The notes below the pieces were generated by a model, which saw only the letters and a list, made by a program, of their open reading frames with translations, was not told the DNA's origin and searched no databases. DNA of 64,000 bases. It comes from Azolla caroliniana. Its lineage: Eukaryota; Plantae; Polypodiophyta. Below are positions 26,254-55,023 of the stretch, in pieces. Numbering within the stretch: position 1 is the first letter of the stretch; every line of letters starts with the position of its first letter. Position numbers and translations under genes: made by a program. The stretch lies in the NCBI GenBank assembly GCA_043228905.1, contig JBHGNT010000002.1:9362001-9426000 (forward strand), in the 5' to 3' direction.

Positions 26254-26258
26254 AAGTT

Positions 26259-27504
26259 GAACCTTCTCATATTGAAGGTTAAACTTATGACATTCCATGT
26301 GATATTCTTAAGATTTGCTAGATTTTTACATAAATAAATTCATAACTATTCCAAATTGACAAGGTCATTAACTAATCTTTCAAAAGGCATCTCACTATGT
26401 CTGTCAAACCAATTTCTTGGAATGAAAAAACTTGGCCACATCATTTAAGACACTCAAAGAGCGTGTGTGCAAGGCTCCCACTCTTCTATTATCAGACCCT
26501 TCTAAGCCTTTCACAATCGAAACCAATGCTGGTGATTATGCTATTGGTGTTGTACTTTATCAAGGCAATCACCCTATTGCTTTCGAAAGTAAAAAGCTTG
26601 ATGTGACTCAATCTTGGTATTTGGTTTCAAGAGAAAGAGTTATTCACGATAATCCATGCACTAAATACATGGAGGACTATCTCTATGGAAATCAAATTGT
26701 GGTTACAACAAACCATCAATCATTGAAGTATATTTGTAACTAACCAGATCTTGTTGGTTGTAAAGGCCGTTGGGCTAACCCTATGCAAGATTTTGATTTT
26801 TCCATATGGTATTAGAAGGGTTCTATGAACACCATTGTGGATACTCTTAGTTGCATTAAAGAAGTTAACATGCTTAGATTCAAGAAAATACAATCTTATC
26901 TTTTGGATCACCTTTGAGGGAAATACCTTGATGGCAGTTATTTCTCCAAATATTGGACGAAAGCCAAATTTGTTTTAAATGTCGTTACTAACACCCTACC
27001 CTTGGAGGCGACCTTTCACATTACAAACAGTTTGCTCTACCATGTAGTAGTAAGGTCTATGTTCCAGATTTACCAAACCTTAAACAAAAAACTCTTCATG
27101 AATGTCATGATATACCATCTACTAATCATAGTGGAATTCAACAAAAACTTGTTCTCATCTTGAACCATACCTTTTTCTAGTCTAAGATGCACTTTGACGT
27201 GCATAAATAGGTGACTCAATGCTTAAAATGCCAGATTAATAAATCAAAACAACTTAAAGATGTTGGTCTTTTGTATCCCTTAGATATTACTAACAACAAA
27301 TGAGAATGTATCTTGATGGATTTTATTGTTAGTTTACCTCATACACACAGTGGGCATGATGCAATGTGGGTGGTTTTTGACACACTAATGAAATTGGCTA
27401 GATTTATTCCTACCAAAACCAGGGTAGCCGCTCAACACTTGCCTTATCAATTTGTTCTTGAATTATTTCGTTTTTATGGCTTACCAATAGATAATGTTAA
27501 TGAT
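26259..27504 (+). mobile_element. Gypsy chromovirus-type pol fragment 'GyF' part 1 (RNase H to start of integrase core)
   Basis: PFTIETNAGDYAIGVVL, TNHQSLKY, MDFIVSLPHT...YGLPIDNVND; breaks directly into plastid sequence. Confidence 0.85.
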
Positions 27505-27557
27505 TCAGAACTTCCCGATCCATTCATTCCATATTTCTATTTTCTAGAAGATAGATT
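27505..27557 (+). pseudogene. matK: Plastid maturase K fragment
   Basis: TCCATTCATTCCATATTTCTATTTTCTAGAAGATAGA resembles the matK SIHSIFxFLED motif with a frameshift. Confidence 0.5.
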
Positions 27558-28394
27558 GCACGCTCAAGTTACAGATGTATCCGATCGCGTTTTAGAATCA
27601 ACATGAACAGATGATCGGTAAATATAGACATCAACGTCAATTCGATCATTTATTTGATTGAGATTACTGAAACTTCGGTAATCTCAACCAAGTATTCGAC
27701 ATATGAATGGATTCATTTTCAATGGCTGAGCCCCTCAAAAAAAACCATTCCTCAATCAATATGAGTAATGGATCTGTACCTAGCAAAAAAATCTTAAGAA
27801 ATCGAAGCATAAGAGGCAATTAGAATAAAAATGAATAAAAAAAAATCAACTAATTCATCTATCCCTATAAAAGAATTTAAGTATGAATAGACTCAGCCAT
27901 AAAGCTTTCTCCTTTTTGAACCGTAGTGTGAAGTAGGAACGAAGAAGCGATAGTCTTGATAGACTCACCCCCAACTTCTTTTTGCTTAGTACGTGAATCG
28001 GATTATCTGTGTGTTTGAGGGTTGTAGCTGATACTAATAATTGTTGGTTTTGCGGGCTGGATCGTACCATCAAGCAAGTTGATTATCGATCGATTCTTCT
28101 TCAAAGAATAATCAATTGAGTATTTAGTTTATTTGAAAGACAGGCTTCTTCCGCCACCCTATCTCCCAAATCTACTCGATGTCTGAATCCGATTAAGAAT
28201 TTTCCTCGTTCTTTCAGTCTCTTCAGAAAAACGTTTGGGTTCACCTCAGCGACGGAGCCCATTCCAATACCTAACTCGATGGGTCGTTCTTGTCAGTGCT
28301 CACCGAACTTGGGGCTCTTACGTAGCATCATGATAATAATGCTATATCACATAGCTTTTCGGGAGTTTATTGGTTAACCATACGATCTGAAGGA

Positions 28395-28525
28395 CATAGA
28401 GGAAGATTGAAAGGAATTGCCAATCGCGGTAATAAAATATCTTTTGGAAAATTTTCTCTCCAAGCTCTTGAACCGGCATGGATTACAACAAGACAAATAG
28501 AAGGGGGAAGAAGGGCAATAACGAG
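28395..28525 (+). pseudogene. rpl16: Plastid ribosomal protein L16 fragment
   Basis: [44 protein letters not shown]. Confidence 0.92.
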
Positions 28526-28714
28526 GAATTTGTGTTGGGCTTCTATTCTTGTCTGTGGTGCCACAAGTTTCCTACTAGTTGGGATCTCTAGTTGCATTGG
28601 CAAAGACCTGATTCTTGAACTTCTGTCTGAACAAATTGTTTTTATCCCCCCAGGTATTGTAATATCCTTCTACGGAATCGCAGGTCTTTTTCTTGGGTTT
28701 TACTTGTGGTGTAC
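28526..28714 (+). pseudogene. ycf4: Plastid PSI assembly protein Ycf4 fragment
   Basis: NLCWASIL...[11 protein letters not shown]...[27 protein letters not shown]. Confidence 0.9.
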
Positions 28715-29164
28715 GTCGTGCGAAATTAGAATTTCATGCACGGTTCTGAATGAGCGGGAAGATCGAAAATCTTCTTTTCAACTCTGACTCTCCCACACCA
28801 GTTGTTGCTTCTTTTTCTGTGACTTCCAAGGTGGCGGAGTTGGCTTCCTGCATCGGGCGGCGAAACTCCAACTTACGAAACTTTATCGATCGAGGATTCT
28901 ATAGATACACTGGAATGTGGAATTTTTTTTCTTATTGATGAAGATGGGTTTGTTTTTAAATATACCACGGGTTTTTATCCAGATAGACCTTTCTCTGACT
29001 ATTCATTGCGGAATTACCCGCGTCGACCAACCTTGTTAATTAAGCTTGGATTATTGCTCGGTGAAAATAGAAGCTTCCGTAAAAATGACGTTTGTCTTCA
29101 GTTCGGTCAAATTGTAGCCATTCATCATAAATATCTGTTAGCCCGAACAACGAAGCCTTTTTCA

Positions 29165-29315
29165 GCAAATCCCAACAATTGTTGTACTTCGCGAGTAACA
29201 TTAATCTCTTAACAGTTAGTGAGTTGTAAATATTCGGCATTTCCCCCAGAGAAAGAGCAACATCCGATACTGGTCCAATGATCTGAGTAACGTATCCCAC
29301 ATGATTTTCCACCAT
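29165..29315 (-). pseudogene. atpB: Plastid ATP synthase beta N-terminal fragment
   Basis: [31 protein letters not shown]. Confidence 0.9.
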
Positions 29316-30059
29316 TTTGGAAATTTCAAAAGAGGGAGAACTAGTTTTCGTAACTATTTTCGTGTATTATCTTTATTTGATTACTGAATCGATAAAGAGA
29401 TATCTTATTTCATCCCCGATCCATTATCTATTGTTGGCGAAAAGAGAGTCGTTCGGAACAAACCCCTCCGCTCTCCAGTCATGAACCTTTTATCAAATCA
29501 TTTGACTCATGAATTCTAAATCTGCTCCCTCTATGCAATCCGTGTCGTTCGGTGAGGGTTAGTACCGTCATCTTGGAAATCGTAGTTTTACTAGCAATGC
29601 CGATTTTTATGCATTCCCTGAATAAGGGAAGTTCGATCAGAGAAGGTAGAAAGTTGGATATTGCTAGCATGAACTATTGAGTCAATGAACATGCCGGTTC
29701 ATCATGCTTGCTGTTTAAAATACTCGTTAGGTGGTTCCGCTTTTCTTTTGGGAAAGGCGTGCGTTTCAGGCTTGCAGGGAAAAATGCCATTTCCGAGTTC
29801 AAAGATTGTTGCTTTAAAGTGGAAAGAAAAGTGCAAAGCCTCTTCTTGCTAGTGATTCATCAATATTGCTGCCGACTCGATTTAAAGTGAAAAGAAAAGT
29901 GTTGCTTTGCTGGATTCGCAGATTATGGCCAAAAGATGATATTGCCTTCTTGCATGATCCTTCTGAATTGGCCCTACGCGTTACCAATGCCATCAGGGAT
30001 ATTTTCAACAAGAAATAGATCGACGAATCCGCTCTAGCAAGACTGAAAATCCGAGTCTA

Positions 30060-30443
30060 TCCGAAGCTTGGTCTAAAATTCCAGAAAAATTAGCCTTTTA
30101 CGATTACATTGGTAACAATCCGGCTAAAGGTGGATTATTCAGAGTAGGTGCAATGGACAACAATGATGGTATAGTTGTAGGTTGGTTAAGCCACGCTATC
30201 TTCAAAGATAAGGGGGGTCGTGAGTCGTTCCTCCGCCGGATGCCCACCTTCTTCGAAACATTTCCATTAGTCTTGGTAGATGGCGAACGCATCGTAAGAG
30301 CCGATGTGCCATTTAGACGAGCGGAATCTAAATATAGTGTTGAGCAAGTAGGTGTAACTGTAGAATTTAACGACGGTGAACTAGATGCCACTAGCTTTAG
30401 CAATCCCTCTACGGTAAAGAAATACGCAAGATGCGCCCAACTG
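30060..30443 (+). pseudogene. psbB: Plastid PSII CP47 fragment
   Basis: [27 protein letters not shown]...[11 protein letters not shown]...[24 protein letters not shown]. Confidence 0.97.
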
Positions 30444-30624
30444 CCTAGCTACGAATCTGTTCGGGAGAAGCTAGCCCAATACGAAGTTTTTGATAATTAG
30501 TGTCATGAATTGTACGATAAAAAGTTTCAATTGTTTTTTTTTTACTTCTATGGAGTATCAAATATCTTCACTTCCCCTACCTAAATCTTCTTCAAACACA
30601 AACTCGTGTTCAAAATTCAAGCCC

Positions 30625-30918
30625 ATACCTGGTTTCCAATTCGGCTGCAAATGTAGCCAATTGGCTAGTAAGAACGCCGCAGAAATAGCTAGCAGGAAGA
30701 TAGCTCCGTTATAAAGATCTTTGTTATTGCGTAGACCAATGGTGTACCACCATTGATATACACCAGAATAAGCAATATTGACGGGACCCGAAGCCCCCAC
30801 CTAGGTGTAAGCTTCGACCGTTGGCTGTCCAAAGTGAGGATCCCAAATGGCATGAGCAATCAGTGTCACGTGTAGTGGGTCCCATACCCATGCCTCAAAG
30901 TTACCCTGCCAAGCTACA
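30625..30918 (-). pseudogene. psaB: Plastid PSI P700 apoprotein A2 fragment
   Basis: [28 protein letters not shown]...[20 protein letters not shown]...WLHLQP; a second psaB piece ([18 protein letters not shown]) lies at ~34148-34211 on +. Confidence 0.96.
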
Positions 30919-30927
30919 ACAACCCTA

Positions 30928-31023
30928 GTTACTATAGTGGTTCCTTTCGACCCTAGAAAATGACCAGAAGCACCTGCTATAAAGCTACCAGGCAATGACA
31001 ACGATACTATTCGTAAATATGTA
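30928..31023 (-). pseudogene. nad5: Mitochondrial NADH dehydrogenase subunit 5 N-terminal fragment (unedited)
   Basis: [32 protein letters not shown] matches plant mitochondrial Nad5 MYLLIVxLPLLGSxxAGxFGRFLGSxGTAIVT, with P/S at expected C-to-U edit positions. Confidence 0.75.
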
Positions 31024-31603
31024 CTCAATGAATCCTTTCTTTCTTGTTTTGGATATTCATGGCAGTTTGTCCAGAATGGAAACGCAAAGGGTTTTTTCCT
31101 TTACAGAATGCGCACTTATATACAAAATTCTTTCATATTGAACCAATAAATTGACCCTGTCGGTTACTAGAAATACTACCGCATCCTGCCAAAGGCCCGG
31201 AAACTTGCAAAGCTCCTAAGCCCGAAAAGGCGGCATTAGGTAAAGGGAGTTCGCGCTAGTTGGTATCAAGTCCCGGTCCACAGGGTAGCCTTAAGGGCAA
31301 AGGCGGGAATGGTTTCCTTTGTTTCCCCGCGTGCGAATGATTGATTGAATGTTGGATCCTCTTATATTGCTAATGGTGGTATCCCGAATGAATTCGGAAC
31401 AAAACATATCGTCAGAAACTACCTAGCGACCTGGTTCCTAACTACAACAAGTCCTGGATATTAGTAAATGATAACCAACTTCTTTTTTTCTAACAATAAG
31501 AAATTGGTGGACTAGTAACTAGTCTTGGCCAACAACCTAGCATGCACGATGAAAGCCCGCGGAGAACAATCTTTTAGTAATAGAAACAATAGTGGCTATT
31601 TTG

Positions 31604-31687
31604 GCCCACGTAGCTCAAAGGATAGACTATTCTTATGTACCACCCGGGTTGGCGGGAAACTAGCCGGTTCGAGTCCGGTCGTGGGCT
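31604..31687 (+). tRNA. Atypical tRNA-like sequence (possibly derived from trnT-UGU), pseudogene
   Basis: Acceptor stem GCCCACG/CGTGGGC, TAGCTCA start of D arm, T arm GCCGG-TTCGAGT-CCGGT; anticodon arm does not fold canonically. Confidence 0.5.
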
Positions 31688-31864
31688 GGTGGGAGGAACA
31701 AGCAAGAATAGTTCAATACGGCGTGTAACAAGCAAAACAAGAATTTCACTTCGAATCCTAGACTTTAGCACCTTGTTGTTTATGGTGTTTCATGATCAGT
31801 ATCGGAAACGAATGGAGAAGTGGTAGAACGTGCGGAACCGCATATTGGATTATTCTAGTGCGGC

Positions 31865-32150
31865 AATCAAGTAGTCCATTATTAAATAAAGATTCAGCCG
31901 ATTGAAAACCGTGAGGTATTTTTTGGCGTAACGTTTGTTCGATCACTCTTGTACCAGCAAACACTATATATGCTTCAGGTTCGGCTATGATTATGTCTCC
32001 TGACATACGAAAACTAGCAGTTACACCATCTGTAGTTGGATGAGTAAGAACCGATTTATAAGGCAATTTCTTCTGAACTTGATATTTTTGCAAAGCAAAA
32101 GAGATCTTAGCCATTTGCATTATGCTTAACATTCCTTCTTGCATACGAGC
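31865..32150 (-). pseudogene. accD: Plastid acetyl-CoA carboxylase beta fragment
   Basis: ARMQEG..MQMAKIS...[37 protein letters not shown]. Confidence 0.95.
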
Positions 32151-32434
32151 TTCTCTTTTTCTCATTGCTTCTCGAATAGGTCCATCACACCATCGATTCA
32201 AGATTTGAGTAAAGACCATGATCTTTTTCTAGAGATACTACTACTTTGTGGAGGGATAATAAAAACGGCGTATAGGTAAAGTGAAAGTAGTAGGAAGGGA
32301 TGATACAGAAACATTTGAAAAGAAATATAGGCTAGACTCATTATATTCTCCCAAAAATATTTTTCTTAAATCTTTTTTTTTTAGCAATTTAAATCAAAAT
32401 ACTTTTGCATGTTTCGATTTGCTTCTGGAACGTA

Positions 32435-32745
32435 TCCCTTGATTTGCTTACGGATGATACTGCTAATTTCATCGGGTCTAATGTTTATTACCATCTTTTA
32501 TCCACCAAATATATCTTACTGAAGGAAGGGAAGGAAAGAGTGAAACCTGTAACATAAAAAAAAAGAGTATCAATTCTGATCGGCTACGTCTTCCATGGAC
32601 TTGAGTAGACCGATTTTATAATCAATCAGGCGTAGATGCAATTCATTATCCAAACGACTATTCGGACTTTTTAGCACCCTCTTTGATGCAAGTCGAGAAA
32701 CTTGTTGTCGAATAGAGTCACAAATTTTTGTAACTGTAGCCTTAA
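32435..32745 (-). pseudogene. atpA: Plastid atpF 3' end, spacer and atpA 5' end
   Basis: IRQQVSRLA...LDNELHLRLIDYKIGLL (atpF) followed by MVINIRPDEISSIIRKQI (atpA), in native order. Confidence 0.85.
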
Positions 32746-32867
32746 ATTGGTTGAATCTTTGGATCTAAAACTATCTTTCCTTTTTTATCCCACAAATTCT
32801 TGTACTATAAAAACATTAGAAATAATGAGGTTAAGCATAATAGCTATAACCAATTTTTGTTAGGTAC

Positions 32868-32995
32868 CGTTTGTTTGTCTATTTCTGAGACGATCGGTGG
32901 TACATCCTTTAGTAAAATCATAGGGACTCAATTCCACCCTCACTCTATCCCTAGACAATATTCTTATATAGTTACGTCAGATCTTTCCTGATATG
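32868..32995 (-). pseudogene. infA: Plastid translation initiation factor 1 fragment
   Basis: [30 protein letters not shown]. Confidence 0.85.
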
Positions 32996-33017
32996 TGAGT
33001 CGATACGTGGCACCCAT

Positions 33018-33380
33018 TACTCCTTTGGAAATATCACCTGAGTGGTATTTATTTCCCGTGTTCCAAATACTCCGTACAGTTCCGAATAAATTATTAGGTG
33101 TACTTTTGATGGCGGCCGTACCCGCAGGTTTGTTAACAGTACCCTTCATTGAGAATGTTAATAAATTTCAAAATCTGTTTCGACGTCTGGTAGCTACAAC
33201 AGTTTTTGTTATTGGTACTGCGGTTGTTGTTTCGTTAGGCATAGGAGCAACTCTACCAATTGATGGATCTTTAACTTTGGGATTATTTCAAAATTAGAAC
33301 CCTACTAGTTCATTGACATGCACACAGAAAATCTAGGGAGTGATTGCTACACCACAACATCTCCCTAGCCTTGTTGTTTT
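33018..33380 (+). pseudogene. petD: Plastid cytochrome b6f subunit IV 3' part plus 3' stem-loop (copy 1)
   Basis: [35 protein letters not shown]...SLTLGLF; hairpin CTAGGGAG...CTCCCTAG followed by a T-run. Confidence 0.97.
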
Positions 33381-33448
33381 TTTTATAAGAAACTACTAAA
33401 ATTTCGAAATGGTTCTATTATTTATTCTATTTATTATTTGACCTAGAT

Positions 33449-33630
33449 TGGGGGGGAGGCAACAACCTAGTAGCAGTAGCTAGAAAAGTTGCTTTAGCAC
33501 CAATCCCGTTAGGTACTGCAGATTTCTTGGTACACCACATTCATGCATTTACAATTCATGTTACTGTATTAATATTACTAAAAGGTGTTCTATTTGCACA
33601 CAGCTTGCTGGTAATACCCGATAAAGCCAA
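33449..33630 (+). pseudogene. psaA: Plastid PSI P700 apoprotein A1 fragment
   Basis: [33 protein letters not shown]...IPDKA. Confidence 0.95.
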
Positions 33631-33649
33631 GTGGGAGAGCGGTTGATGG

Positions 33650-33766
33650 TAGAGCCCAGTGCAGCAAAATCGGCATGTTGGGTTCGTTAAGCAGTTCTAG
33701 AATATTTAGCATATTTTTTTATCTGCATGACCGAGAATGTCTACGGTTCGAATCCGTATAGCCCTA
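33650..33766 (+). tRNA. trnV-UAC: Plastid trnV-UAC group II intron 3' end and exon 2 (pseudo)
   Basis: Domain V-like GAGCCCAGTGCA..GCATGTTGGGTTC, then CCGAGAATGTCTACGGTTCGAATCCGTATAGCCCTA. Confidence 0.8.
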
Positions 33767-34615
33767 ATCCGACGCAAAAATGAGACACGCATTACCATTC
33801 TAATTTTAAATCTATAACAATAAGTATCTATCTATAGAATTAGGGATAGTTCTAACTCTATAGATATTTATTGTTAAGTTCAATACGAATCATTAAATTT
33901 CTAGATTTTCTCTCCCAAACAAAGTAGTTTGGTAGTTCGATATATTCCAGTTATTTGATCATTGAAATGCCCAGATGGACCCCCTTCCCAAACCAAACAT
34001 GGACCTTTCAATCCATTCGGTTTTCTTGACCGCGCCTCTTTCTCTCCTCAGATAGGAAAAGTTTATTCAACAATTTTTTTTTATTACTTTTACGCGCGGG
34101 CCCGCCACGTTCTTCCCACTATCTGTTCGATTCATACCGAACCGCAATAATAGCTCATCTGAGTTGGGCTAGCTTATTCCTCGGATTCCATACCTTAGGT
34201 CTTTATGTTCAGTTACTTCTGCTAGCGATAGGCGTAATTGGAGACCAATTCCTCTAAAACTTGCAATGTCTTTTCTTCGTATTCCCGAAGGAATAACAAG
34301 AAAATTGTGCCTGTTATTGGGTTTGTCACAGATTTGTGACTTATTAATATCGATAACTGGTTGAATTTTTTTGTTGGTGCGAAAAGATGTCCTATTTGAT
34401 CCACCAACACTCCACTTCGGTTCTATCAATTTTTGATGCTCAATTGTAAACATATCTCTATCAATCTTTTTGGTTTTTTTATAACTAGAGTTATTTTTGG
34501 GAAGTACTCCAGTTATTTCTGTAAACATATCTCTATCAACTTGTCGGGACGCTATGATTACCATAGAACTCCAATTCCAAAACGAAAACGTTTTGTGACT
34601 TCTTTTTTTAAGTGT

Positions 34616-34697
34616 GGGTTGATGCTCGAGTGGTTAATGGGGACAGATTGTAAATTTGCTAGCGACGCCTATGCTGGTTCGAATCCAGCTCGACCCA
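34616..34697 (+). tRNA. trnY-GUA: Plastid-derived tRNA-Tyr(GUA) pseudogene
   Basis: GGGTTGATGCTCGAGTGGTTAATGGGGACAGATTGTAAAT...GCTGGTTCGAATCCAGCTCGACCCA; C>T/G>A changes relative to plastid trnY. Confidence 0.9.
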
Positions 34698-34710
34698 AAT
34701 ATGAGACGGA

Positions 34711-35782
34711 TACACTTTTCAGCCACGAGCCCCGATTGATGTTAATATATATCATGATGAGTTGCGAAGTACGCAAAACTTTCTTCGGGATATGCAAGAT
34801 ATGTTGCATATTGCACGAGATAATATAAAAACAACTCAAGATAGAGCGCATTTTTATGCCGATCATCATTGGCAACCTCATGTATTCAACCCTGGACAGA
34901 AGGTATTTTTACTTGTACCTCACAATTCTAAGACATTGTCTAAGGGTAAGTGCGCTAAGTTAGCCCCAAGGTTTTGTGTACCTTTTACAGTCCTCAAATG
35001 CATTGGGTCGTCAGCCTATCGTCTCGCTCTTCCCGATGGTGTTGAAATTCATCTAGTTTTTCATGTGAGTCGTCTAAAAGAACTTCTAGGTTCTGGCGAC
35101 AATACAGTTACAACTGAAACTCTGGTTACTTTTGAAGAATTATCTTCTAAACCACATGGACCAGAAATAATTCTCGACGTTAAAACAAAAAAATTACGTA
35201 CGAAAGAAATCCAAGAATTTAAAATAAAATGGATGGATAAATCAATAAAAGATGCCACATGGGAACGCGAAAATACTCTTAGAACTAATTTCCCTAACTT
35301 TCCATTGCAAGAGTGCAATGTTTTAAAGAGGGGGAGTATGTTACGGGCATGACCATATAATATCCCATGATGAAAATTTACCGTAGTATTCTATACACGT
35401 GGATAAGTGTGAGGGTTAAACGAGGGTGTAAAGAAGGGGAGGATTACTTTTAATCATTGGGATTGAGACAACCCATTAGGCCAAGTGTGAACTTGCCTGG
35501 GGGCCTTGGGTATCGCTATAAATAAGAGGCCTAACTACCCTCATTTCATCATCTTTTGACTATGTTGAGACTCTGTTCTTCTAGTGGGTCAACTCTTGTA
35601 GCGAGCGCGCCAACACCAGGTACGACTCGACGCCACGACGGTGGTATGGGACGCCGATCGAGGCTCGAGTCCGTCTCGATCCCTTCGCTCAGGGGTTGTT
35701 GGGTGGATCGGCACACCCTTCTTTCTCTCTCTCCTTTCTATCTATCTACCTATCATTCTTTTATCCTTATCATATGCTTACA
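34711..35782 (+). mobile_element. Gypsy chromovirus 3' end 'GyF' part 2: integrase C-terminus, chromodomain, PPT and 3' LTR (35339-~35782)
   Basis: FQPRAPIDV, KLAPRFCVPF, HLVFHVSRLK, chromodomain PEIILD...FKIKW...DATWERE; PPT AAGAGGGGGAGTA; LTR TGTTAC...CTTACA with TATAAATA at ~35517. Confidence 0.85.
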
Positions 35783-36159
35783 TTAGTACATATCTCTAAT
35801 ATTGGGTTTTAGAAAGGAATTGATCGTGATACCGAACCCGTCCATAGAGCTGAGTCTTTAGACGATCAATCCTTATACTGCACAAAGAAACCCTATCGAT
35901 ATCTGTAAATAAACGAAAAAAGTTTCCTTGTTAGAAGTGAATATCTCATTATCGTTATGAATCGTATTTAAACATGATATTTTATTTTGAGGATATTCCA
36001 GTTTCAACCAGATCTATGCGGAGTTGATGTCTCAACTAGCATTCACCAGAGAAATTCTGTCACGCCAAGACTGATTAAACCCCGATAAGATTGATTGACA
36101 TAAATGAATTAGGAGGAGACTAATATGAAACCTATAATTTCTGTTGCTTTTGTTATTGT

Positions 36160-36318
36160 TGCATGAACCGAACCGACTATTAGTATAAGTATGAAGATTA
36201 TTGCTTCAATGAAGGCGAATAGGCCCAATTCCCTAAAACTCATAGCCCAAGGATGGAGAAAGACTGTCTCCATGTCCAAGATTGCAAATACCGAAGCAAA
36301 CATGTAGTAATCGAATGA
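36160..36318 (-). pseudogene. ndhC: Plastid NdhC fragment (unedited)
   Basis: [50 protein letters not shown]. Confidence 0.93.
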
Positions 36319-36580
36319 AGGTATTTCCTTTAGGTTCAATACCCGACTAATAAATTGAAAATTTTTCTTGGTGCCTTTCTTTTTCCCCGCGGGAGCATAA
36401 CATTGAGACAAAAAAAATGGAAAATGGAGGAATCCAATCCACATTCAAAAGATTGTGGATTGGAACCGTGGCACGGGGTGTTAGGAATTGGAATGCGCCA
36501 CAAACAAACGATGGAAAATGAGGATTTGAACGATGAGTAGGAGAAATCTAAGCCCTAAGCGAGGGTTGATAATCATCCCA

Positions 36581-36740
36581 TCACTCTAGGTATTCCCACA
36601 ATTTGTGTTGTCGATACGGATTGTGATCCAGATCTGACAGATATTCCGATTCCAAGTAATGATGATGCACGATCTTCCATTCGTTGGATATTAGATAGGT
36701 TGACATTAGCTATTCGTGAGGGTCACTCGACCCTAAACTA
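36581..36740 (+). pseudogene. rps2: Plastid ribosomal protein S2 C-terminal fragment
   Basis: [48 protein letters not shown]. Confidence 0.92.
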
Positions 36741-39700
36741 AAGGTCTAATAACTATTGAGGGATTATGTGGCTGGTTAGTATCCGGTTCGACATAGAGTA
36801 ACAAAAGATCCACGTCACGACTTGAAATATTGCATAATCCCATTAGAGGAACAATTTCTAAGCTATTTTTATAGAATTATTATTAGCAAATCTGAGTATT
36901 TTACACAGGTTTTACTATTAAAGCCAATAACATTTCTTTTCCAAAACCAAGGGTAAATATAGATATCAACATCAATTCGATCATTTATTTGGTTGAGATT
37001 ACCGAAACTTCGGTAATCTCAACCAAGTATTCGACATATGAATGGATTCATCTTGAATGCCTGAGCCCTAACAAAAAACCATTCCTCAATGAAAATGAGT
37101 ATTGGATCTGTACCTAGCAAAAAATGTTGACTGGCAAAGACTTACAAGCCGGATAAAGTCCAGAATGGTAAAGGGATATTTATTTTAGAACTATCTATAA
37201 TTATTATATTTTGAGAAGCGAACGGACAGACCTAGATTCGGTATGCCGATCCGGATCCGGACCGCTTCGTAGCCGGTTGCTGGTTGGCACCGGTTTGTAC
37301 CCAGAGCCGGTGACCTATAAAAGGACCCGGTTAGATTGTAATCAATTAGTGATTTATTAATGAAAATGTTGTTGTTCTATATCTTGTTTAATCTTTGAAG
37401 CTTTAGTTAATTACCGTTTTGTGCTTAATAGAATCTATCTTATGCGTGTATTGAGATCATTAACCATGCCGGCTAATAGCCGGTTAGGAATACGTTTGTA
37501 TCACGGTCTATGCCTACCCCACTTGCACCACCCTTTGGTGAAGTGTCCTAGAGGGACACCCTGTGTTAGGGCTAGTCCTGCCCCAAGGAGTAACACAGTT
37601 TTTGGCAACCACGATTCCAGCCCAAGCATAGTGAAAAGCGGGGGGCTTGGATGACTAGACCAACAAACGACCCAACAATGGAGCGAGCGCGACGACTTGC
37701 CGAACGACTGCGGAAGTGCAAAGCGTACTGCCAAGCAGCGGAATCCATTCTGTAGGCATTAGCAGCGGGAGAAGGCGATTCGGAACCATTTCCGACGTTT
37801 GAATCGGATTACCGCAGTAGTCACGACACCCCGGATGGACCGAAGGACGAGGAATCGGATAATATACCGACACCGAAACCGACGATAACAAAACTGGAAG
37901 CTTCAGGAAGGCACGAGGCGGATCAACCTCCGACACCACCACGTGGGCCTCCGAAGGAGGAAGAGAAAAGACCTTCTACGCCAGAAAAAGAGGAGGAAAG
38001 ACCTCTAACACCGCCTCCAAAAAAAGAGGAGGAAAAACCTCTGACACCGCCTCCAACAGAAGAGGGGGAGAGACCTCCATCACCACCAACTAGAGTTCCG
38101 ACACCAGACGACGATATGCCCTTCCAATATCCCAAGTACCGGGATGATCTAGACGCGGAAGCCCATGTGTATGCATTTCTACAAACATGGGAAGCAAACC
38201 ATGTGCCGCAACGCTTAAATGCCGCCGAAGTAGAACAGTCGAAGATCACAGAGTTCGGCATGACTTTGGAAGGAACAGCTGCGTGATGGCGCTTGATGCA
38301 CCTTTCCGGCACCATCAGTACGTTTGAGGACTTGAAAACTAGATTTTTACAATCCTTCAACAAGGAGGTGGATCAACGAGAGATGGTTGGCCTATTCTAC
38401 ACCATACGGCAGGAACCTACGGAAACCATTCAAAAATTCATAAGCCGGTTCCAGCGGATGCACAACCAGCTAAGTCAGGCACCACTAGAAGCAGAGGCTA
38501 AAGCAATATTCCTAGCAGCACTCCGGGAACCCTTGCATATGGTGTGCGTAGTCATTGATTTCCGCATTAGCACGATCGACTAGGTTAGGGAGATGGAGAA
38601 AACGAACTCGTGGCTAACAATGAGGGCACTCCAACGTACATTACCGACAGAAGAAGACCTACATTTTCGGCAAGCTATACAATGTACAACTTGTCTCAAT
38701 GCCGGGCACTCTTTCATAGAATGTACCATGTGATCACAGTGCATGTTATGCCATTCCAGGTTTCACACAATGGACCGATGCGAATATAACTTACCGAACC
38801 GGCAAGCTGCACTAGTAACACAAATTGATACCTACAGGGACCGGGAAGAGGAAAAAGAACGTTGGCATTGAGACGAGCGTTATCGGCCAGTACAGGATGT
38901 CCGGTACAACGACAAAAGGGACACTTATGACCGGGACCGGTACGACAGGTACCGGGATCATAATGGTGACCGTTCTGATCGCGATCACTCTCCAAGTTAC
39001 AACCGGAGGGGAGAGGATTAGCATGGGGATTACGAAGATCGCTGCCGACAGGGATACAAGAACCACCGACGGTTTAATAGGAAACGAAACAACCGAAAGG
39101 AGGGGTGTTGGGAACCGGCGAAGGAATACCCACGAGAGCCGGAGAGAGGCTTGAGTGGCACCCAGCCAGAACATAGACGAACGGAAGAGCCTAATCGGCC
39201 GACAACAGGATTTCAACCAAGTACCGGGCCAAAAGTAGAATCCAACAATACCCGGAAAGTGTATTGTTATTATTGCCGGCAGGAAGGCCATTACAGCAAC
39301 CAATGCCCTGTGAAAAGTAATGAAAAATGACCGACAGTCAATATGGTGGTAGTAGAGGTCGCGGATATACATCAAGTCAGCGCCAAGTCAAAAGGAAAGA
39401 CGACGGAGTGGGAAGCCCAAGAGGATATCCGGAAATAGGCCACTGAATGGGTCGAGAAGGAAAATGAACGGAATGCGGCTGAAGTCAAACAACAAAAGGC
39501 GGCACCAACGGAGCTCACTAGCACAATCCAGGCAGAAAACCCAACATGGCAGGCGTTACAGGAATGTCAAATTACATTGCCATTAGGCCGGTTACTACAA
39601 TTAGTACCCCGATTCACAGATGGGCTGAAATTAGTAATAACAACACCAGACTTGCCGCCAGCTCCGGATTTCTTTTCCAACCCAGAGCAAGGTTTGGCGG

Positions 39701-42700
39701 TGGTGGACCCTAGCAATCTAGCAATCACTGCCCTTGTCAAAGGACGCGAGCTACTAGGGACGATCCTCGATAGAGGATTGGGCGTCAATGTAATAAGCCT
39801 TCACACTTGTGACACCCTGGGAATCAAGGAGTGGGAGCCTTGCCCGTTTTGGCTCCGGATGGCAGATATGAGTTCGGTAAGACCCACCGGTTTAATACGA
39901 GATCTGGAGGTAACAATTGGAGGACATGCATTCCGCATTTCTGCGGTGGTTCTCTAGTTAAATACCCAAGGGGCTTACCCACTATTTCTTGGACGACCAT
40001 GGTTGCGGACGACACACATTAAGCAGAACTGGCGGAAGAACATGATTACGTTCCGATGAGGCAAAACCAAAGTACGGGTACCAACACATCCACAAACCGG
40101 AACCAACAAAGAGCTAACACCGTTATACGATGAAAGCGTTAATATGCTGGAAGGACTTGCGGACGAGGAAGTCAATCATTATCTCAAGGATAATCCAAAA
40201 ATCGTACCCTTGTTTCAAATAGATGTGGCAGAAGCAGTCTCTTCATATATTACACAATCGAGAGATGCCGGAGAGGAACCGGATAAAGATACCATCAGAG
40301 AACTACGTCAAGCACAGGAGGCCCTGGAACGGGAACTGGTGGTATCTCAAAGGTTCAAGGCATCCCAACTAGAATAAGTAAACTTAGGAATTGGAGAGGA
40401 AGTACGACCGGTACATATTGGCAAAGAAATGTCACTGGAAAACAAAACGGCAATGATTACACTATTGAAAGAATTCTGGGACGTATTTTCCTGGTCCTAT
40501 GAGGATATACGAGGGTTGGATCCACAGCTGTATCAACACCAAATACATCTTAGCAAAGACGCCAAACCGGTAGCACAAAGGCGTTATCGAATGAACCCTA
40601 ATTATGCGGTATGGGTAAAAGAAGAAATTGACAAGTTACTCTGAGTTGGTTTTATCCGGCCGGTAAAGAAAGCCACATGGATGAGTCTGATAGTAGTTGT
40701 GCCGAAGAAGAACAGGAAGATCTGGGTGTCCATCGATTACCGGAAATTGAATGTCGCGACAGTGACCGATGGCTTTCCACTTCCATTCACAGATGGAGTT
40801 CTAGACACGGTAGCCGGTCATGAGGTATATAGCTTCCTAGACAGATTCCACAGGTACAATCAAATACGGATGCACCCCGATGACCAAGAAAAGACGGCGT
40901 TCGTTACCGTGTGGGGAGTTTTTGCTGTCGTAGTGATGATGTTTGAACTCAAGATGGCATCGGCTACCTTTCAGCGGATAATCATGGACATATTTCGAGA
41001 GTTCATCCCGACGTTTATGCAGGTGTGCCTATACGACTTCGCGGTGTATAGCCGGCAAGGGGACCACCTGGACCATCTCCGATTATGCCTAGGAAAATGC
41101 AGGGGATACCGGCTAAGCTTGAACCTGGCAAAGTGTGTGTTCAGGGTGGCTAGTGGTACGCTACTGGGCCATATTGTGAGCAAGGATGGGATAGCAATAG
41201 ACCCGGACAAAGTCAGGGAAATTTTGGAGGCACTGGCACCAATGACGGCCAAAACATTAAGCAAATTTTCAGGACAAATCCGGTGACATAGACGGATGCT
41301 CCAGTATTTGGCAGATCTTGCAACACCACTGCATGTTGCGGTTCACCGGACACCGTTTCAATGGACAACTACAGAGGATGATGCTTACCGCGTGCTAAAA
41401 GTACTACTATCGCAAGCACCAGTAGTACAACCCCCGGACTGGTTCAAAGAATTTCATGTGTTCGTCGACGCGTCAGACATAGCAATCGGTAGCGCATTTA
41501 TGCAGCTGACCAAACCCAAGTGGTACTGGCCCGTATACTATGCGAGTCGGAAACTGTCACAAGTGGAACGAAATTATTCCACAACGGAGAGAGAAGCCTT
41601 GGGGATGATTGGGGATGATTTATAGCGTCACGAGGTTCAGACACTATTTGTTGGGCCAGAAATTTTCATTTCACGTAGACCATTCTACAGTTTTATACTT
41701 GGTCTCTAAGGCATCCCTAACAAGTAAGCTGGCCCGGTGGACATTGGTACTACAGGAATTCGAGTTCGAAATTTATCACCAACCGGGTATAGAACATGTG
41801 GTTTCCGACTATTTGAGCCAGTTAGAAACCGGCGAGGCCAGTGATGGCGTACCAGATGAGTTTCCGGATGCCGAACTGTTTAAAATTATAGCATAAACCA
41901 CGTCGGATGATACAGTTCCGGACGAGGAAAAATGGCTAACGAACATGCATCAGTTCTTAAGCATAGGACTACCTCCGGAGGAGATGAACAGAGACGAGCG
42001 GAAATGATTGACGGTCCAAAGCCGACATTTCTGTTTATTACAAGACACCCTATACCACAAGGGAGCCAATGGAATATGGCGGAGAGCGGTGCAGAGCAAT
42101 GAAAAGGACATCGTATTACGGGAATCACATTGGGGAGTCGCCGGAGGACACTATGCCAGTGAAGCTACAACAAGAAAGATATGGCGTAGTGGGCTATGGT
42201 GGCCAATGACACTGAAAGATTCCGTCCGATATATGAAGGAATGTGATTTGTGCGAACGAATGTGCCTCACCAGCCGGTACTACCCTTGGAACCATTTCAA
42301 AAATGGGGGATGGACTTGTCGAACCATTCAAGCCGCCAGCCATGCGAACCGGCAACAGATACGTCATTGTTGCTACGGATTATTGCACCAAGTAGGTAGA
42401 GGCCAAGGCTTTGCGAGACAATACCGTGGCATCATTGACAAAGTTTCTCTATGAGTGCCTCTAGTGCCGTTACGGATGTCCAATCGAATTAATTAGCGAC
42501 TAGGGTGGGCACTTCCTTGGTCAAGTAGTGGAGAGCCTAACAACGTTCTATGTGGTAGTACACAAGCGCAACACTCTGTACTACCCGCAGGCCAATGGAC
42601 TGTTCGAGTTCACCAACAAGACACTACAGAACATCCTCCGGAAGATCGTCAACGAGAACCGAACCGAGTGGGACATGAAGTTGCACAATACATTATGGGC

Positions 42701-44579
42701 TTATCAAACGAGCATCAAGATGACACCATTCCCGTTAGCATTCGGACTAGAAGTGGTGATGTCGATTGAATTTCAAGTACTAAGCTTACGAATATAGGTC
42801 CAGGAGCGACTGAGTGAAAAAGAATCAGAGAAAATCCGATTGGCGGCACTATGTGAGTTGGAAGAGCATCGGATAGCGATTATCATGAAGCTGGAACTGG
42901 AGAAACGACGAAGGAAGGCATTTGTCGACCGGCACCGGAAGGGCAATGAGAAGTTGTTCGGAATCGGCAAGCCGGTGCTCGTATTTCAGACCCGGATGGG
43001 TAAGATGCCGGGCACGCTATGGTTCCGGTGAACCGGACCATACTAGATCATGTGAGAATTCAACGGTTCTTACCAGTTAGGGACGCTTCCCGACGAAGTA
43101 CTAGACAAATGGGTAAATGGGTTCCGGCTTAAACCCTATTACGGGCCCGTGCCACCAAACCCATTCCATCAGGTATAGACTGACGGGGTAACCGAAAGCA
43201 GCAAGCAATTGGCCGGCAACCAAGAGGATCCGGTGTTACCCGACAACCAGGACTAATGTTTAATTATTAAAATTTAAAATAAAATAAAATAATAAAATAA
43301 TAAAAATATAAAAATATAAAATAAAAGTCATCATGCATAGGCGAGGAGCAAACGGGCACTTTGAAAAGGTCTGTGGTTGGTGGCTAATTAAAGCCTATTT
43401 AAAAGCACACCACGTGTCAACCGACTGTTATTATAGTACACGACGTGCATGCGTGGGAATCAAGAACAATGCACTAAGCGCACACATGGAGAGACAAAAC
43501 CTTTGCCTCACAGAGTCCCTCTCATTTCGCCAGAACAGAGCACTAAGTGCACACAACCAATTAAGAGTGATCAGACGAATGCCAGAAGAACGCACAGACG
43601 TACTAGTTCGACCAAGTCCCACAAACTCAGACGGCCACATGGAACACATGCCACATTCGGAAGCGGCCAAGAAATGGTTCAGGCAACACGGGTTGGAAGG
43701 GTTCCTAAGAATCGTCAAGGCACCTCTGCACGGCGAGGAGGAGAAAGTCATGTAGGAGATCGATACAGAGGTCATCACAGAAGAGGCCATCCGCAACATG
43801 ATCGGCTTACCGAAGGGTGGAATATTCTCGATCGACCACCCTTCCCTGGAGATGCTCACGAAGTTCTTTGGTGAGTACTCCTTGGCCGGCAAGGCGTACC
43901 ACACGCAAGGCGGCGAGGACGCTCTATTCCGAGCATTCGCTCGTGTGCTTCATGAATATGGGCATGTACAACCTTGACCCCTGGCTATGCCAAAGAACAG
44001 AGTTGGTCTTATTATAGCAACTTATGAGGGAGTACAGGTGGATTGATCGGTGATCATCACTGACAATCTGAGGGCGGCCATAGACTCAGTAAAGGATGGC
44101 AAGAAGATGTTGTAAGGAATTTGACGCTATCCAATCTTTCTCCTCTCGGTCACAACCGAGACAACACGGATCAATGCAGCAGAAAATGGGGAAAAACACA
44201 GAGAGAGATGAATACACAGGGTATAACGTGGAAAACCCTCAACGGGAAAAACCACAGGAGTGCACGACTCCAACTATCACTATACACTGGAATATACAAT
44301 GGCGAGCTGCAAGGCGACGACCTTGAGCTCGCTGTCCTCGCCACAGGCGGCGGTATTACATAGAGGCGTCGACCTCTTCGTTTCTCTCTCTAGCGGCTGC
44401 TCTCACTTCGCTCCCTCTAAGTAAAACAGAAAAATGAGCAACAACAAAACTGTTTGCCCTAAGTCATATTTATACACATATGACTTTCGGGCTATTTACA
44501 AATATAGCCTCAAGGGCTCTTGGCAAAACATATTAAAAAATATGTCCCCGCATCCGGATCTCCCTCCGGGTACATTCGT

Positions 44580-44845
44580 CATCCGGCTCCGTAGCCGGGG
44601 TCTTCAGCATCCGGCTCCGTAGCCGGGGTATTCATCATCCGGCTCCGTAGCCGGGGTCTTCGTCATCCGGCTCCGTAGCCGGGGTCTTCAGCATCCGGCT
44701 CCGTAGCCGGGGTATTCATCATCCGGCTCCGTAGCCGGGGTCTTCATCATCCGGCACCGTAGCCAGGGTCTTCGTCATCCGGCTCCGTAGCCAGGGTCTT
44801 CGTCATCCGGCTCCGTAGCCGGGGTATTCATCATCCGGCACCGTA
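44580..44845. repeat. 28-bp tandem array in the CoE LTR U3 (9 full units; 10 units in the other LTR at ~49494-49787)
   Basis: Unit CATCCGGCTCCGTAGCCGGGGTCTTCAG and variants; LTR lengths 800 versus 828. Confidence 0.95.
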
Positions 44846-44920
44846 ACAGCAACCGGGCTTGCCGTCATTCATCTCCGGACATCCCATCCGGAGGGACCGA
44901 AATCCCAACAAACTCCCCCT

Positions 44921-47900
44921 TCACTTCGGCATGGGATGTCTCTCCAATCCGATCCTCTTCCGGCATGCTTCCAGCTTGTCGGGTGTGAGCACTTTGGTCA
45001 GCATATCTGAGCCATTCTCGTCCGTGTGGATCTTCGTCAGCACGAACTCCTGGTCTTCTATCCTTTCCCGGATCCAGTGATATCTTCGCTGGATGTGCTT
45101 CGTCCGGGAGTGATAGGCCGCGTTCTTCGCAAGGTGGATGGCACTCTGCCTGTCGCAGTAGAGTCGGTACTCCTCCTGCCGGATACCGAGCTCTCTAATG
45201 AAGTCCTTCATCCATATCATTTCCTTGCCGGCTTCAACAGCCGCCATGTACTCCGCCTCCGTGGTTGACAACGCAACCGTCTTCTGCAGCCTCGACTGCC
45301 ACGAAACAGCTCCCCCTGCATACGTCATCACATACCCTGATGTGGACCGGCTGGTATCTACATCAGCCGACATATCCGAATCGGTAAAGCCGTCGAGTTC
45401 GGGCTTACCGGAGCCGAATCGGAGGCACACGTTTGCCGTGCCCTTCAGGTATCGGAGTATCCACTTGACCGCGTTCCAGTGCTCTTTGCCGGGATTGCTC
45501 ATGTACCGGCTCACCACTCCGACTGCGTATCCTATGTCCGGTCTTGTACACACCATTGCGTACATCAAGCTTCCGATGGCAGAGGCATATGGTACTTTCA
45601 TCATGTCCTCTTTCTCAGCCTTTGTCTTGGGGCTTTGCTTGCTGGACAACTTGCAGTTTGCCGGGAGAGTTGATCCGACCGGTCTTGCTTCCGACATGTT
45701 GAACCGGTGAAGCACCTTTGTCACGTACTTCTCCTGTGACAGCCACAACTGCTTCTTGCTCTGGTCCCGGATGATGTGCATCCCTAGTATTTGTCTCGCC
45801 GGACCCAGGTCCTTCATTGAGAAGGTTCGGTTAAGAGCCTTCTTCAGCATCCGTATCTTGACCTGGTCTCGTCCGACGATCAACATGTCGTCCACGTACA
45901 GGAGGAGTATTAGAGAGTCTCCTCCTTCGAACTTCTTCACAAACACGCAGTGATCGGACTGCGTTTTGTGGTACCCTTCGTCGGTCATGAAGGAGTCGAA
46001 CTTCCGGTACCATTGCCGGGGAGCCTGCTTCAGTCCGTAAAGACTCTTCTTCAACCGGCATACCAGGTGCTCCTTCCCTTTCTTCTCGAATCCTTCCGGT
46101 TGTTGCATGTAGATCTCTTCTTCGAGGTCACCGTGAAGGAATGCCGTCTTCACGTCCATCTGTTCTACCTCGAGGTTCATGCTTGCCGCTATGCTCAGCA
46201 CCGTCCGGATGGAGGTCATCTTCACTACCGGGGCAAATATCTCGTCGAAATCGACGCCCTTCTTTTGCTGGAACCCCTTCACCACGATCCTGGCTTTGTA
46301 TCTCGGGGGGTTTCCAGCATCTCCCGGTTTCAGCTTGAACACCCACTTGTTTCGTAGTGCCCGCTTTCCTTTTGGCAACTCCACAAGTTCATATGTGTGG
46401 TTCTCATGCAGGGAATCCATCTCGTCCTGCATGGCACTCAACCACCTGCGGCTCTGGGTGTCATGCTTTGCTTCTTCAAAGCTCTCCGGCTCCCCTTCGT
46501 CGGTTAGCAGCACGTGCTCTGGTTCCGGAAATCTCCGGGGGGCCCTTCTCTCTCTTAGAGGATATCTCCGTTCCGGAGCTTCGGCAACCGGTTCTTCCGA
46601 TTCTTCTTCGTCCAAATCCATTTCGGGATCGGGGCCGGTTCCGGTATCGTTTTCATCTTCTTCGGCCGGTTCTGTTTCTTCATAGTCTTCGGCCGGATCC
46701 TCGAGTGTTAACCGGTCCCATGCCGGTCGGGACTGCTCCTCGTAGAGTTGATCCTCACCGGTCGACTTGGAGCTCTTCATCTCCTTCTCCGACTCCCAGT
46801 CGGCGAGTGTCCTGTTCTCCATGAAGATGATATCACGACTTCGGAATATCTTCTTGTCGACCGGGTCCCATACTCGGTAGCCGAACTCGTCATCGCCGTA
46901 ACCGAGGAATATGCATGGCCGGGTCTTTGGATCTAGCTTTCCTCTCCGGTCCTTTGCCACATGCACGTATGCGAGACACCCGAACACCCTCAGATGCCGG
47001 TAGGACACTTCCTTACCGGTCCACACTTTCTGCGGCGTGTCTCCGTCCAAAGGTACTGAGGGTGATCTGTTTATCACATATGTCGCCGTCGACATTGCCT
47101 CAGCCCAAAACCCCTTGGGTAATTTCGCATGCGCCAGCATACTCCGGACCCTCTCCATTATGGTCCGGTTCATCCTCTCGGCCAGCCCGTTCAGTTCCGG
47201 CGTCTTCGGCACAGTAAACTCGAGCCGGATTCCCTTCGAGCGACAGTACTCCTGGAACTGCCCCCGGTATTCCCCTCCGTTATCCGCTCGTATCGCTTTC
47301 AGCTTCTTGCCGGATTCCCTTTCCACTCTCGCGTGGAGTTCTTTGAAGACGGACAATACTTGGTCCTTTGTCTTCAACGGTGCCGTCCACAACTTCCGGC
47401 TATGGTCATCTATGAATGTTACGAAGTATTGGGCTCCGCCATGTGACTTCGTTTCTACCTGACACACATCAGTATGCACCAACTCCAATGGTGCGCTACG
47501 TCTCGTCGGTGGCCTTGAGTGGAAGGAGGTCCGGTTTTGCTTACCGGCCAGGCAGTCGGTGCACTTCTCCAGGTGCACATGCTTCACCGGAATAAGGTTG
47601 TCTTCTGCAAGCCTCTTCATCCCCTTCTCACTCATGTGGCACAGTCTCTTGTGCCACAGCTCACCGGCAGTGTCGGCTGCCACGTTCAGCTCCTCCGGAC
47701 ATAGCCGGGAATTCATCAGGTACAGAGTGTTGACCTTCCGGGCCCGAGCCACTATCAGGCTCCCCTTGCTGAACTTCATGACACCGTTCCGGATGCTACC
47801 CGTGTAGCCTTCATCATCTAGCCTCCCGGCCGAGATCAGGTTCAATCGGACCTCCGGAACGTGTCGCACATTCTTCAGCAGCATTTTGCATCCGGTCGGG

Positions 47901-53283: not shown

Positions 53284-53485
53284 CGAGGATACGCCAGGAC
53301 GAACAATGGTTCGCCATGGCGCTAATGGGTGGTTTTTCCATGGTGGAAAATAATCAAGTAACAGTACTGGTCAACGAAGCGGAACAGGCTACCGAAATTG
53401 ATCTTGACGAAGCTCAAAGGTGTTTTCAGATAGCTCAGGTTGACTTGGCAAAAGTGGAAGGCAAGAAGAGTGTTATAGAGGCTAG
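53284..53485 (+). pseudogene. atpE: Plastid ATP synthase epsilon fragment
   Basis: QWFAMALMGGFSMVENNQVTVLVNEAEQATEIDLDEAQ. Confidence 0.92.
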
Positions 53486-54139: not shown

Positions 54140-54335
54140 CAACTCCCTCAGATTTTGCACTTGCTGTACTTACTCCTCCAACTTCTTCTGGCAGGGCTCT
54201 ACGCATGGCAATTCCCACAGTACTTGATTGACCCTTTTCAAAGGGGGAAACGACGAGTTGGTTGTGATGAAGACGCTTACTTTCCGTCCTGAATTCAACA
54301 CATTTCCATTGAATTGCCTGGGTAGAGGTACTCGT
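54140..54335 (-). pseudogene. rpoA: Plastid RNA polymerase alpha N-terminal fragment
   Basis: IQWKCVEFRTESKRLHH...SPFEKGQSSTVGIAMRRALPEEVGG. Confidence 0.9.
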
Positions 54336-54968: not shown

Positions 54969-55023
54969 AAAAGAGTATACCCAGAGTGGCTACCAGTAGA
55001 AATGTATAAACCAGTGCTTCCAT
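54969..55023 (-). pseudogene. psbT: Plastid PsbT N-terminal fragment
   Basis: [18 protein letters not shown]. Confidence 0.93.

What the first reader, a model, noticed from the sequence alone, without database searches (positions are those of the whole stretch)
26259..35782. A chromovirus whose integrase core is replaced by 7.2 kb of shuffled organellar DNA
Seen: GyF pol stops at YGLPIDNVND (~27504) and same-strand, collinear integrase resumes at FQPRAPIDV (~34711), followed by chromodomain, PPT and LTR. Judged against typical Gypsy integrases, roughly 80-90 codons are missing. The gap holds the plastid/mitochondrial patchwork, and more patchwork starts right after the LTR. Inference, three alternatives: (a) filler capture at a double-strand break inside the element; (b) an LTR element carrying organellar cargo, assembled or spread by retrotransposition, which would be an undescribed route for NUPT/NUMT mosaics; (c) chance juxtaposition of two elements.
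Basis: partly seen in the sequence, partly recalled or inferred. Interest (0 to 1): 0.8.

Follow-up and report, generated by a model that had tools for sequence, protein, structure and literature searches.

The report
Organelle patchwork with captured retrotransposon end
What looked like one retrotransposon stuffed with organelle DNA is really pieces of two different retrotransposon families around and inside a 16 kb patchwork of chloroplast and mitochondrial fragments, likely glued into a chromosome break in one event, and one piece likely came from a free, not-yet-integrated DNA copy of a retrotransposon.

Summary
The anatomy is real, but it is not one element. Left (26255-27504) and right (34716-35803) chromovirus pieces are collinear with 257 nt missing, yet belong to sister families. 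At diagnostic residues the left follows P0002 16:1 and the right follows L001 49:1 (p=2.5e-13). The left is about three times more decayed. The patchwork does not stop at the LTR: it runs 27505 to about 59310 (15.1 kb organellar), is split by a later LTR insertion with a target-site duplication, has the same age inside and outside (3.8% vs 3.5% from organelle contigs), and ends in a third broken Gypsy. So this is a complex plastid-mitochondrial nuclear insertion, a known kind, and cargo transposition has no support. One detail is unusual. The right piece ends at the LTR end plus TT, the two bases that lie between LTR and primer-binding site in its family; the plastid has CC there. That fits an unprocessed cDNA end captured by end-joining, as shown in yeast (about 0.6 over two rival forms). 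It rests on two bases and one reference contig; integrase insertion followed by deletion remains (0.3). The scan's notes showed no such finding elsewhere.

The parts
26255..27504 (+). Old Gypsy piece, family A (P0002-like): RT end, RNase H, integrase zinc finger and start of core; 6 stops plus frameshifts; left edge of the insertion
   Evidence: tblastn; 71.5-73.3% aa to P0002, 61.6% to L001 protein; 71.6% nt to L001
27505..34698 (.). Organellar patchwork, part 1: about 20 pieces can be told from the rows shown, both orientations, mostly plastid; about 30928-31660 inferred mitochondrial
   Evidence: Pfam, tRNA, Rfam, laid contigs; 94 differences in 2461 nt over 7 X5 pieces
34699..34715 (.). 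17 nt of unassigned filler between plastid tRNA-Tyr piece and retrotransposon piece
   Evidence: no other match in window
34716..35338 (+). Young Gypsy piece, family B (L001): integrase tail, SH3, chromodomain, polypurine tract; open frame, no stops
   Evidence: 90.9% nt to L001 over 1104 columns; Pfam; tree 98/92 with L001 protein
35339..35801 (+). 3' LTR of family B, single copy in window
   Evidence: alignment to L001; family contigs leave the window at 35801; self-search
35802..35803 (+). TT dinucleotide, equal to the LTR-to-PBS spacer of L001; candidate unprocessed cDNA end
   Evidence: plastid letters before 35804 end in CC
35804..37124 (.). Organellar patchwork, part 2 (starts with a 40 nt plastid piece that I read as the psbC end, name recalled; Pfam Oxidored_q4, Ribosomal_S2)
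   Evidence: 33 differences in 933 nt over 5 X5 pieces
37125..52709 (+). Later Gypsy insertion into a plastid piece, AAAAA target-site duplication, LTRs 7.4% apart; carries a nested young Copia (44110-49852)
   Evidence: the interrupted plastid piece is also present unbroken at 27617-27856
52710..59310 (.). Organellar patchwork, part 3 (right boundary approximate)
59311..62343 (-). Third Gypsy (family C, about 32% aa to P0001), broken inside its chromodomain-like motif; right edge of the insertion
   Evidence: tblastn; translation at the boundary

Best explanation
This is a 16 kb patchwork of plastid and mitochondrial fragments lying between two unrelated broken Gypsy elements, likely joined end to end and into a chromosome break in one repair event, and the 1.09 kb chromovirus end inside it is likely a free retrotransposon cDNA fragment captured in the same event. 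Shown: two families, unequal decay, extent of the patchwork, equal age of its parts, the later insertion that splits it, and the TT at the LTR end. Inferred: single-event end-joining; loss of the 3' ends of families A and C at the break; that TT is the end that integrase would normally trim (mechanism recalled from retroviruses and Ty3). Confidence is about 0.92 for 'two families, ordinary complex organellar insertion' and 0.5 for the whole statement.
For: Families: 16 vs 1 (4 neither, n=21) and 49 vs 1 (4 neither, n=54) diagnostic residues, Fisher p=2.5e-13, uniform up to both breakpoints; no recombinant type among the 36 proteins of three clusters compared; summed family depth 8.9-16.1 times higher on the right in 4 of 4 runs. 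Ages: about 13-14% vs at most 4.4% estimated nucleotide decay; organelle pieces 3.8% inside vs 3.5% outside, p=0.76; duplicate plastid pieces 5.2-6.9% apart and later LTR pair 7.4% apart, i.e. 2.6-3.7% per copy. Nuclear decay: 263 of 464 listed changes in X1 are window A/T for contig G/C, the known NUPT bias (PMC7037861, passage). cDNA end: LTR end, TT, PBS in L001; plastid CC before 35804; double deamination about 1% by local CG and CHG rates; upstream half of that plastid gene absent from window. Precedent: yeast break repair captures mtDNA and Ty1 cDNA, the 3' LTR is a hotspot, 40 of 56 such inserts carried cDNA-only nucleotides (PMC11372161, passages).
Against: The cDNA signature is two bases. 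The TT spacer comes from one contig (L001); the only other LTR-PBS join found, L012, a more distant subfamily, has GT. CC to TT is the favoured kind of mutation at a CCG site. No displayed contig bridges 27504, 34716 or 35803 (tables cut). The 257 nt register between sister families on one strand is unlikely by chance (my rough estimate: under 1% per capture). Part 3 of the patchwork was not dated against organelle contigs except through its duplicates. P0002 is only a stand-in for family A and may come from a related species.
Confidence: 0.5

Rival explanations
1. The patchwork formed first. A full family-B element then integrated normally into the plastid piece at 35804, a deletion later removed its 5' four-fifths and the other target-site copy, and CC decayed to TT.
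For: An exact LTR end is what integrase leaves. Another Gypsy did integrate into this patchwork (37125-52709). TEs, mostly Gypsy, split 71 organellar insertions in Oryza (PMC12129026, passage). B is the more abundant family. The 17 nt filler at 34699-34715 fits deletion repair.
Against: Needs two deaminations (about 0.9-1.4%) that happen to give the family spacer, plus a second large deletion that also removed the upstream plastid half.
Confidence: 0.3
2. Homeology-guided capture: the broken family-A integrase paired with family-B cDNA in the integrase core and copied or joined it out to its raw end; the mismatched join then broke again and was filled with organelle fragments in the same burst.
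For: Explains both the register and the TT. The missing 86 residues are the most alike part of the two families (79 of 86 identical). Integrase-independent, homology-guided insertion is known for Tf1 (PMC12786077, passage; PMC11042837, search listing).
Against: No conversion tract at either break: last informative residues on the left are A-type, first on the right B-type. Needs two joins of one age.
Confidence: 0.12
3. One LTR element carried or spread the organellar cargo by retrotransposition, or a single element was simply filled at an internal break (strict a).
For: Collinearity and strand. One low-depth X4 contig (316 nt, depth 21.4, 8 differences) covers 34387-34702, across an inferred fragment junction; it may be an allele or a second copy.
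Against: Two families and two ages; no 5' LTR; patchwork continues past the LTR at the same age; at 30162-30226 only the plastid contig was laid in X1, X4 and X5, though contigs drop rare variants.
Confidence: 0.03
4. The patchwork or its joins are an assembly artefact from organelle reads.
For: No displayed contig bridges the three retrotransposon-organelle junctions; best run holds only 0.32 of the words.
Against: Pieces differ 3-4% from organelle contigs with a deamination bias; a real insertion with a target-site duplication sits inside one piece; X1 has 0-1 difference contigs at depth 21-35 on the left flank.
Confidence: 0.03

Closest known systems
Nuclear mosaic insertions (numins) and complex NUPT/NUMT (PMC6215612; PMC12129026; passages read)
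   Same: Many short plastid and mitochondrial pieces, both orientations, equal age, inferred single-event end-joining, later split by a Gypsy insertion; in Oryza 88 of 828 insertions came with non-organelle filler over 50 bp.
   Different: Here the non-organelle piece is a retrotransposon 3' end that stops exactly two bases past the LTR; the passages I read do not describe that.
Capture of Ty1 cDNA and mtDNA at double-strand breaks in yeast (PMC11372161, passages; Yu and Gabriel 1999 seen only as a reference entry)
   Same: 3' LTR region captured, extra cDNA-only nucleotides, multi-fragment inserts.
   Different: Experimental yeast inserts of 2-4 fragments; here an inherited plant locus of dozens of pieces, plastid-dominated, with a Gypsy rather than a Copia-type element.
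Retrotransposon-linked NUPT proliferation (papaya rps15 x23; PMC12863932, PMC7037861 passages) and the 38-copy grape numt (PMC6215612 passage)
   Same: Organelle DNA next to Gypsy sequence.
   Different: Those are multi-copy; here no repeat of the unit was seen and the flanks do not form one element.
Chromoviruses (Ty3/Gypsy with integrase chromodomain)
   Same: RT-RNaseH-integrase order, SH3 and Chromo domains, PPT, LTR.
   Different: Only fragments of two sister families; clade within chromoviruses not determined.

Membership tests
Single chromovirus element with replaced core | Both flanks from one family | tested here: not met
Single chromovirus element with replaced core | Both flanks equally decayed | tested here: not met
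   6 stops plus frameshifts vs none; about 14% vs 4.4%
LTR element carrying cargo | Two matching LTRs and a target-site duplication around the unit | tested here: not met
   no second LTR in the 64 kb window; a 5' LTR outside the window cannot be excluded
LTR element carrying cargo | Several dispersed copies sharing junctions | tested here: inconclusive
   no genome held; contig tables cut and rare variants dropped
Chromovirus (right piece) | Chromodomain at integrase C-terminus, PPT, 3' LTR | tested here: met
   Pfam Chromo 28 bits over cut-off 25.1, SH3_Tf2-1
Chromovirus (left piece) | Belongs to a chromodomain-bearing family | tested here: met
   nearest P0002, which carries PF00385; the piece itself has no chromodomain
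Complex mosaic organellar insertion (numin) | Multiple plastid plus mitochondrial fragments, shuffled | tested here: met
   mitochondrial origin inferred from contig depth only
Complex mosaic organellar insertion (numin) | One age across fragments, deamination-biased decay | tested here: met
   (12 pieces from X5; part 3 only through duplicates)
Complex mosaic organellar insertion (numin) | Blunt or microhomology junctions | tested here: inconclusive
   organelle genomes not obtainable; several neighbouring pieces abut or overlap by 0-2 nt (28005/28004, 33019/33019, 36579/36579); not tallied
Captured unintegrated LTR cDNA | Extra cDNA-only nucleotides beyond the LTR end, no target-site duplication | tested here: inconclusive
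   TT matches L001 spacer and not the plastid, but two bases only; deamination route about 1%

The most novel reading that the evidence does not exclude
A fossil of one catastrophic repair event in a plant germline: shredded plastid and mitochondrial DNA and a raw, untrimmed chromovirus cDNA end were ligated together, showing that organelle fragments and retrotransposon replication intermediates share one pool of free DNA, and giving a two-base signature to count such events genome-wide. In its boldest form (about 0.12) the cDNA was drawn in by pairing with the broken sister-family integrase.
Probability: 0.55. Interest if true: 0.55.

Novelty: new variant of a known kind. Interest (0 to 1): 0.33.

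Why it matters
The headline idea, a new retrotransposon route for organelle mosaics, falls. What remains is useful in two ways. It shows how a collinear look across an insertion can mislead without a family test. And if the TT end is real, plant complex organellar insertions can hold retrotransposon cDNA captured without integrase, as in yeast. That would date retrotransposon activity and organelle DNA release to the same cell, and it can be tested on any assembled plant genome by asking whether LTR ends inside patchworks keep the LTR-PBS spacer and lack target-site duplications.

Tried and rejected
No whole genome is held, so junctions could not be counted. A 28-letter plastid-derived stretch found no contig in genome contigs or viral contigs, so no plastome was available for a full fragment map or a microhomology tally. 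A homologue search with a polymerase-subunit piece gave one unnamed protein; the host was not identified beyond a land plant. I first read 25567-26254 as a solo LTR, then as the 5' LTR of the Copia at 13219-13903; one search shows only an LTR with a degenerate PBS on the minus strand whose body I could not trace, so both readings are dropped. The left-region tree did not resolve the five close rows; the family call rests on diagnostic sites and identities. A recombinant A/B family was looked for among 36 proteins and 43 loci and not seen. Lack of bridging contigs and of extra copies is weak, because tables were cut and contigs drop rare variants. PMC6673722 and PMC5338827 (passages) did not give the two-base detail for Gypsy or plant cDNA ends, so that step is recalled. 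Supplements were not read; Table S8 of PMC12129026 lists long fillers and may hold similar retrotransposon ends.
Full report
Setting. The window is nested LTR retrotransposon DNA of a land plant (Copia and Gypsy domains throughout). Two earlier scan notes on this genome call it a fern (unchecked); I did not identify the host. No assembly is held, so I used public proteins, metagenome contigs and contigs of sequencing runs.

Observation. tblastn with two full-length Gypsy polyproteins (P0001, P0002) places RT end, RNase H and the first half of integrase at 26305-27504 and the integrase tail from about 34711. The tail has SH3_Tf2-1 and Chromo domains above their cut-offs. L001, a 361-fold-coverage contig found with the tail, aligns to the left piece up to its base 543 and to the right piece from base 801, so 257 nt (about 86 codons) are missing. 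The right piece starts at 34716; its LTR is 35339-35801. Between them lie plastid gene pieces (9 Pfam hits in 8 of the 50 frames scanned that start between 27858 and 34400, one of them weak; 138 frames scanned in all), a tRNA-Tyr and a group II intron piece. Laid contigs show pieces of 137-600 nt on both strands whose order differs from the organelle contigs. A stretch at about 30928-31660 is covered by contigs of much lower depth in 4 of 4 runs (for example 23.5 vs about 490 in X5), which I read as mitochondrial (inference).

The flanks are two families. L001 is 90.9% identical to the right piece and 71.6% to the left. Decay alone does not explain this: 69 of 127 left differences are at third codon positions. 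Where the L001 protein and P0002 differ, the left piece follows P0002 at 16 of 21 sites (L001 1, neither 4) and the right follows L001 at 49 of 54 (P0002 1, neither 4); Fisher p=2.5e-13. The pattern holds up to both breaks. The right-region tree groups the piece with L001 (98/92); the left-region tree leaves the five close rows unresolved, with P0002 nearest. None of 36 proteins from three clusters is close to both pieces, nor any of 43 loci. Summed depth of family contigs is 8.9-16.1 times higher over the right coding part than the left in 4 of 4 runs (a rough measure). The left has 6 stops and frameshifts in about 400 codons, the right none in about 207 (p about 0.01 at the left's rate); estimated nucleotide decay is 13-14% against at most 4.4%.

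The patchwork is larger than the finding. It resumes at 35804 and is cut at 37125 by a Gypsy that ends at 52709, with an AAAAA target-site duplication; the cut plastid piece also occurs whole at 27617-27856. It goes on to about 59310, where a third Gypsy on the minus strand is broken inside a chromodomain-like motif. Total: 15.1 kb organellar plus 1.09 kb retrotransposon. The X5 pieces shown differ from the window by 94 of 2461 nt inside the finding and 33 of 933 outside (p=0.76). Four plastid pieces present twice are 5.2-6.9% apart and the LTRs of the later insertion 7.4% apart, about twice that figure, so all parts are of one age and the later insertion came soon after. In X1, 263 of 464 listed changes are window A/T for contig G/C (whole 12.1 kb), the known methylation bias of NUPTs (PMC7037861, passage). 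This is a complex mosaic insertion as described in nine plants (PMC6215612, passages) and in Oryza, where most were judged single events, 88 of 828 had long non-organelle fillers and Gypsy elements later split many (PMC12129026, passages).

How the right piece got there. It ends at the LTR end plus TT, then a 40 nt plastid piece. In L001 the LTR end is followed by TT and the primer-binding site. Five other loci that reach the LTR end continue into unrelated sequence, as integrated copies do (L003, L005, L008, L013, L036). The plastid contig has CC before 35804, and the upstream half of that gene is not in the window (0 matches at up to 3 mismatches). By recalled retroviral and Ty3 biology, the bases between LTR and primer-binding site are on the free cDNA end and are trimmed by integrase; PMC6673722 (passages) says only that Ty3 integrase is needed for cDNA processing. 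In yeast, breaks capture mtDNA and Ty1 cDNA, the 3' LTR is a hotspot and 40 of 56 such inserts had cDNA-only nucleotides (PMC11372161, passages). The decay of the right piece (C>T/G>A at 32 of 1080 aligned nt) is of the same order as the patchwork's. Against this: CC to TT at CCG by two deaminations has about a 1% chance at local rates (CG 0.117-0.125, CHG 0.075-0.115), and normal integration plus deletion is common, so that rival keeps 0.3. The spacer is known from one contig; L012 has GT.

The register. That B resumes 257 nt after A stops is not explained by the best model. The lost part is where the two families are most alike (79 of 86 residues), which leaves room for homeologous pairing (0.12), but no conversion tract is seen.

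Cargo transposition. No second LTR or copy of either piece is in the window. At 30162-30226 only one contig, the plastid's, was laid in X1, X4 and X5. One X4 contig of depth 21.4 covers 34387-34702 with 8 differences, across a junction that I infer near 34536; it may be an allele or a duplicate. Contigs drop rare variants, so low-copy duplication is not excluded, but there is no single element to carry the cargo.

Novelty. Paper searches listed no plant report of an untrimmed LTR cDNA end inside an organellar insertion; I read passages of eight papers, no supplements, and the library lacks most subscription papers. Verdict: known kind of insertion, with a plausible but two-base-thin new variant. 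Interest 0.33.

Noticed in passing
window 44110-49852: Very young Copia nested in the later Gypsy: LTRs differ at 2 of 801 aligned nt and hold a 28 nt tandem array of unequal length.
   Followed up: partly
window 17505-23504: Minus-strand Copia with LTR-like copies at 17505, 22338 and 22864 and a 54 nt tandem array: an apparent tandem LTR at one end.
   Followed up: no
window 27617-27856 / 36952-37124 + 52705-52780; 33019-33383 / 54598-54964; 52797-52965 / 53040-53210; 56463-56503 / 58223-58263: The same plastid stretches occur twice in the patchwork, 5-7% apart for those measured, so more than one plastome copy or early templated copying fed it.
   Followed up: partly
window 25567-26254: Minus-strand LTR with a degenerate primer-binding site abutting the left Gypsy piece; its body could not be traced.
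   Followed up: partly
window 34387-34702: X4 contig of depth 21.4 with 8 differences in 316 nt: allele or second copy of this part of the patchwork.
   Followed up: no
L002:1581-2051: Coverage-112 contig 95.5% identical to the chromodomain-PPT part but unrelated upstream of the SH3 region; possibly an amplified deleted derivative of family B.
   Followed up: no
window 57888-57962: Rfam Plastid-ycf2 5'UTR match overlaps a tRNA(cat) on the other strand.
   Followed up: no
window 5741-6467: 187 nt tandem repeat inside a Copia pol region.
   Followed up: no
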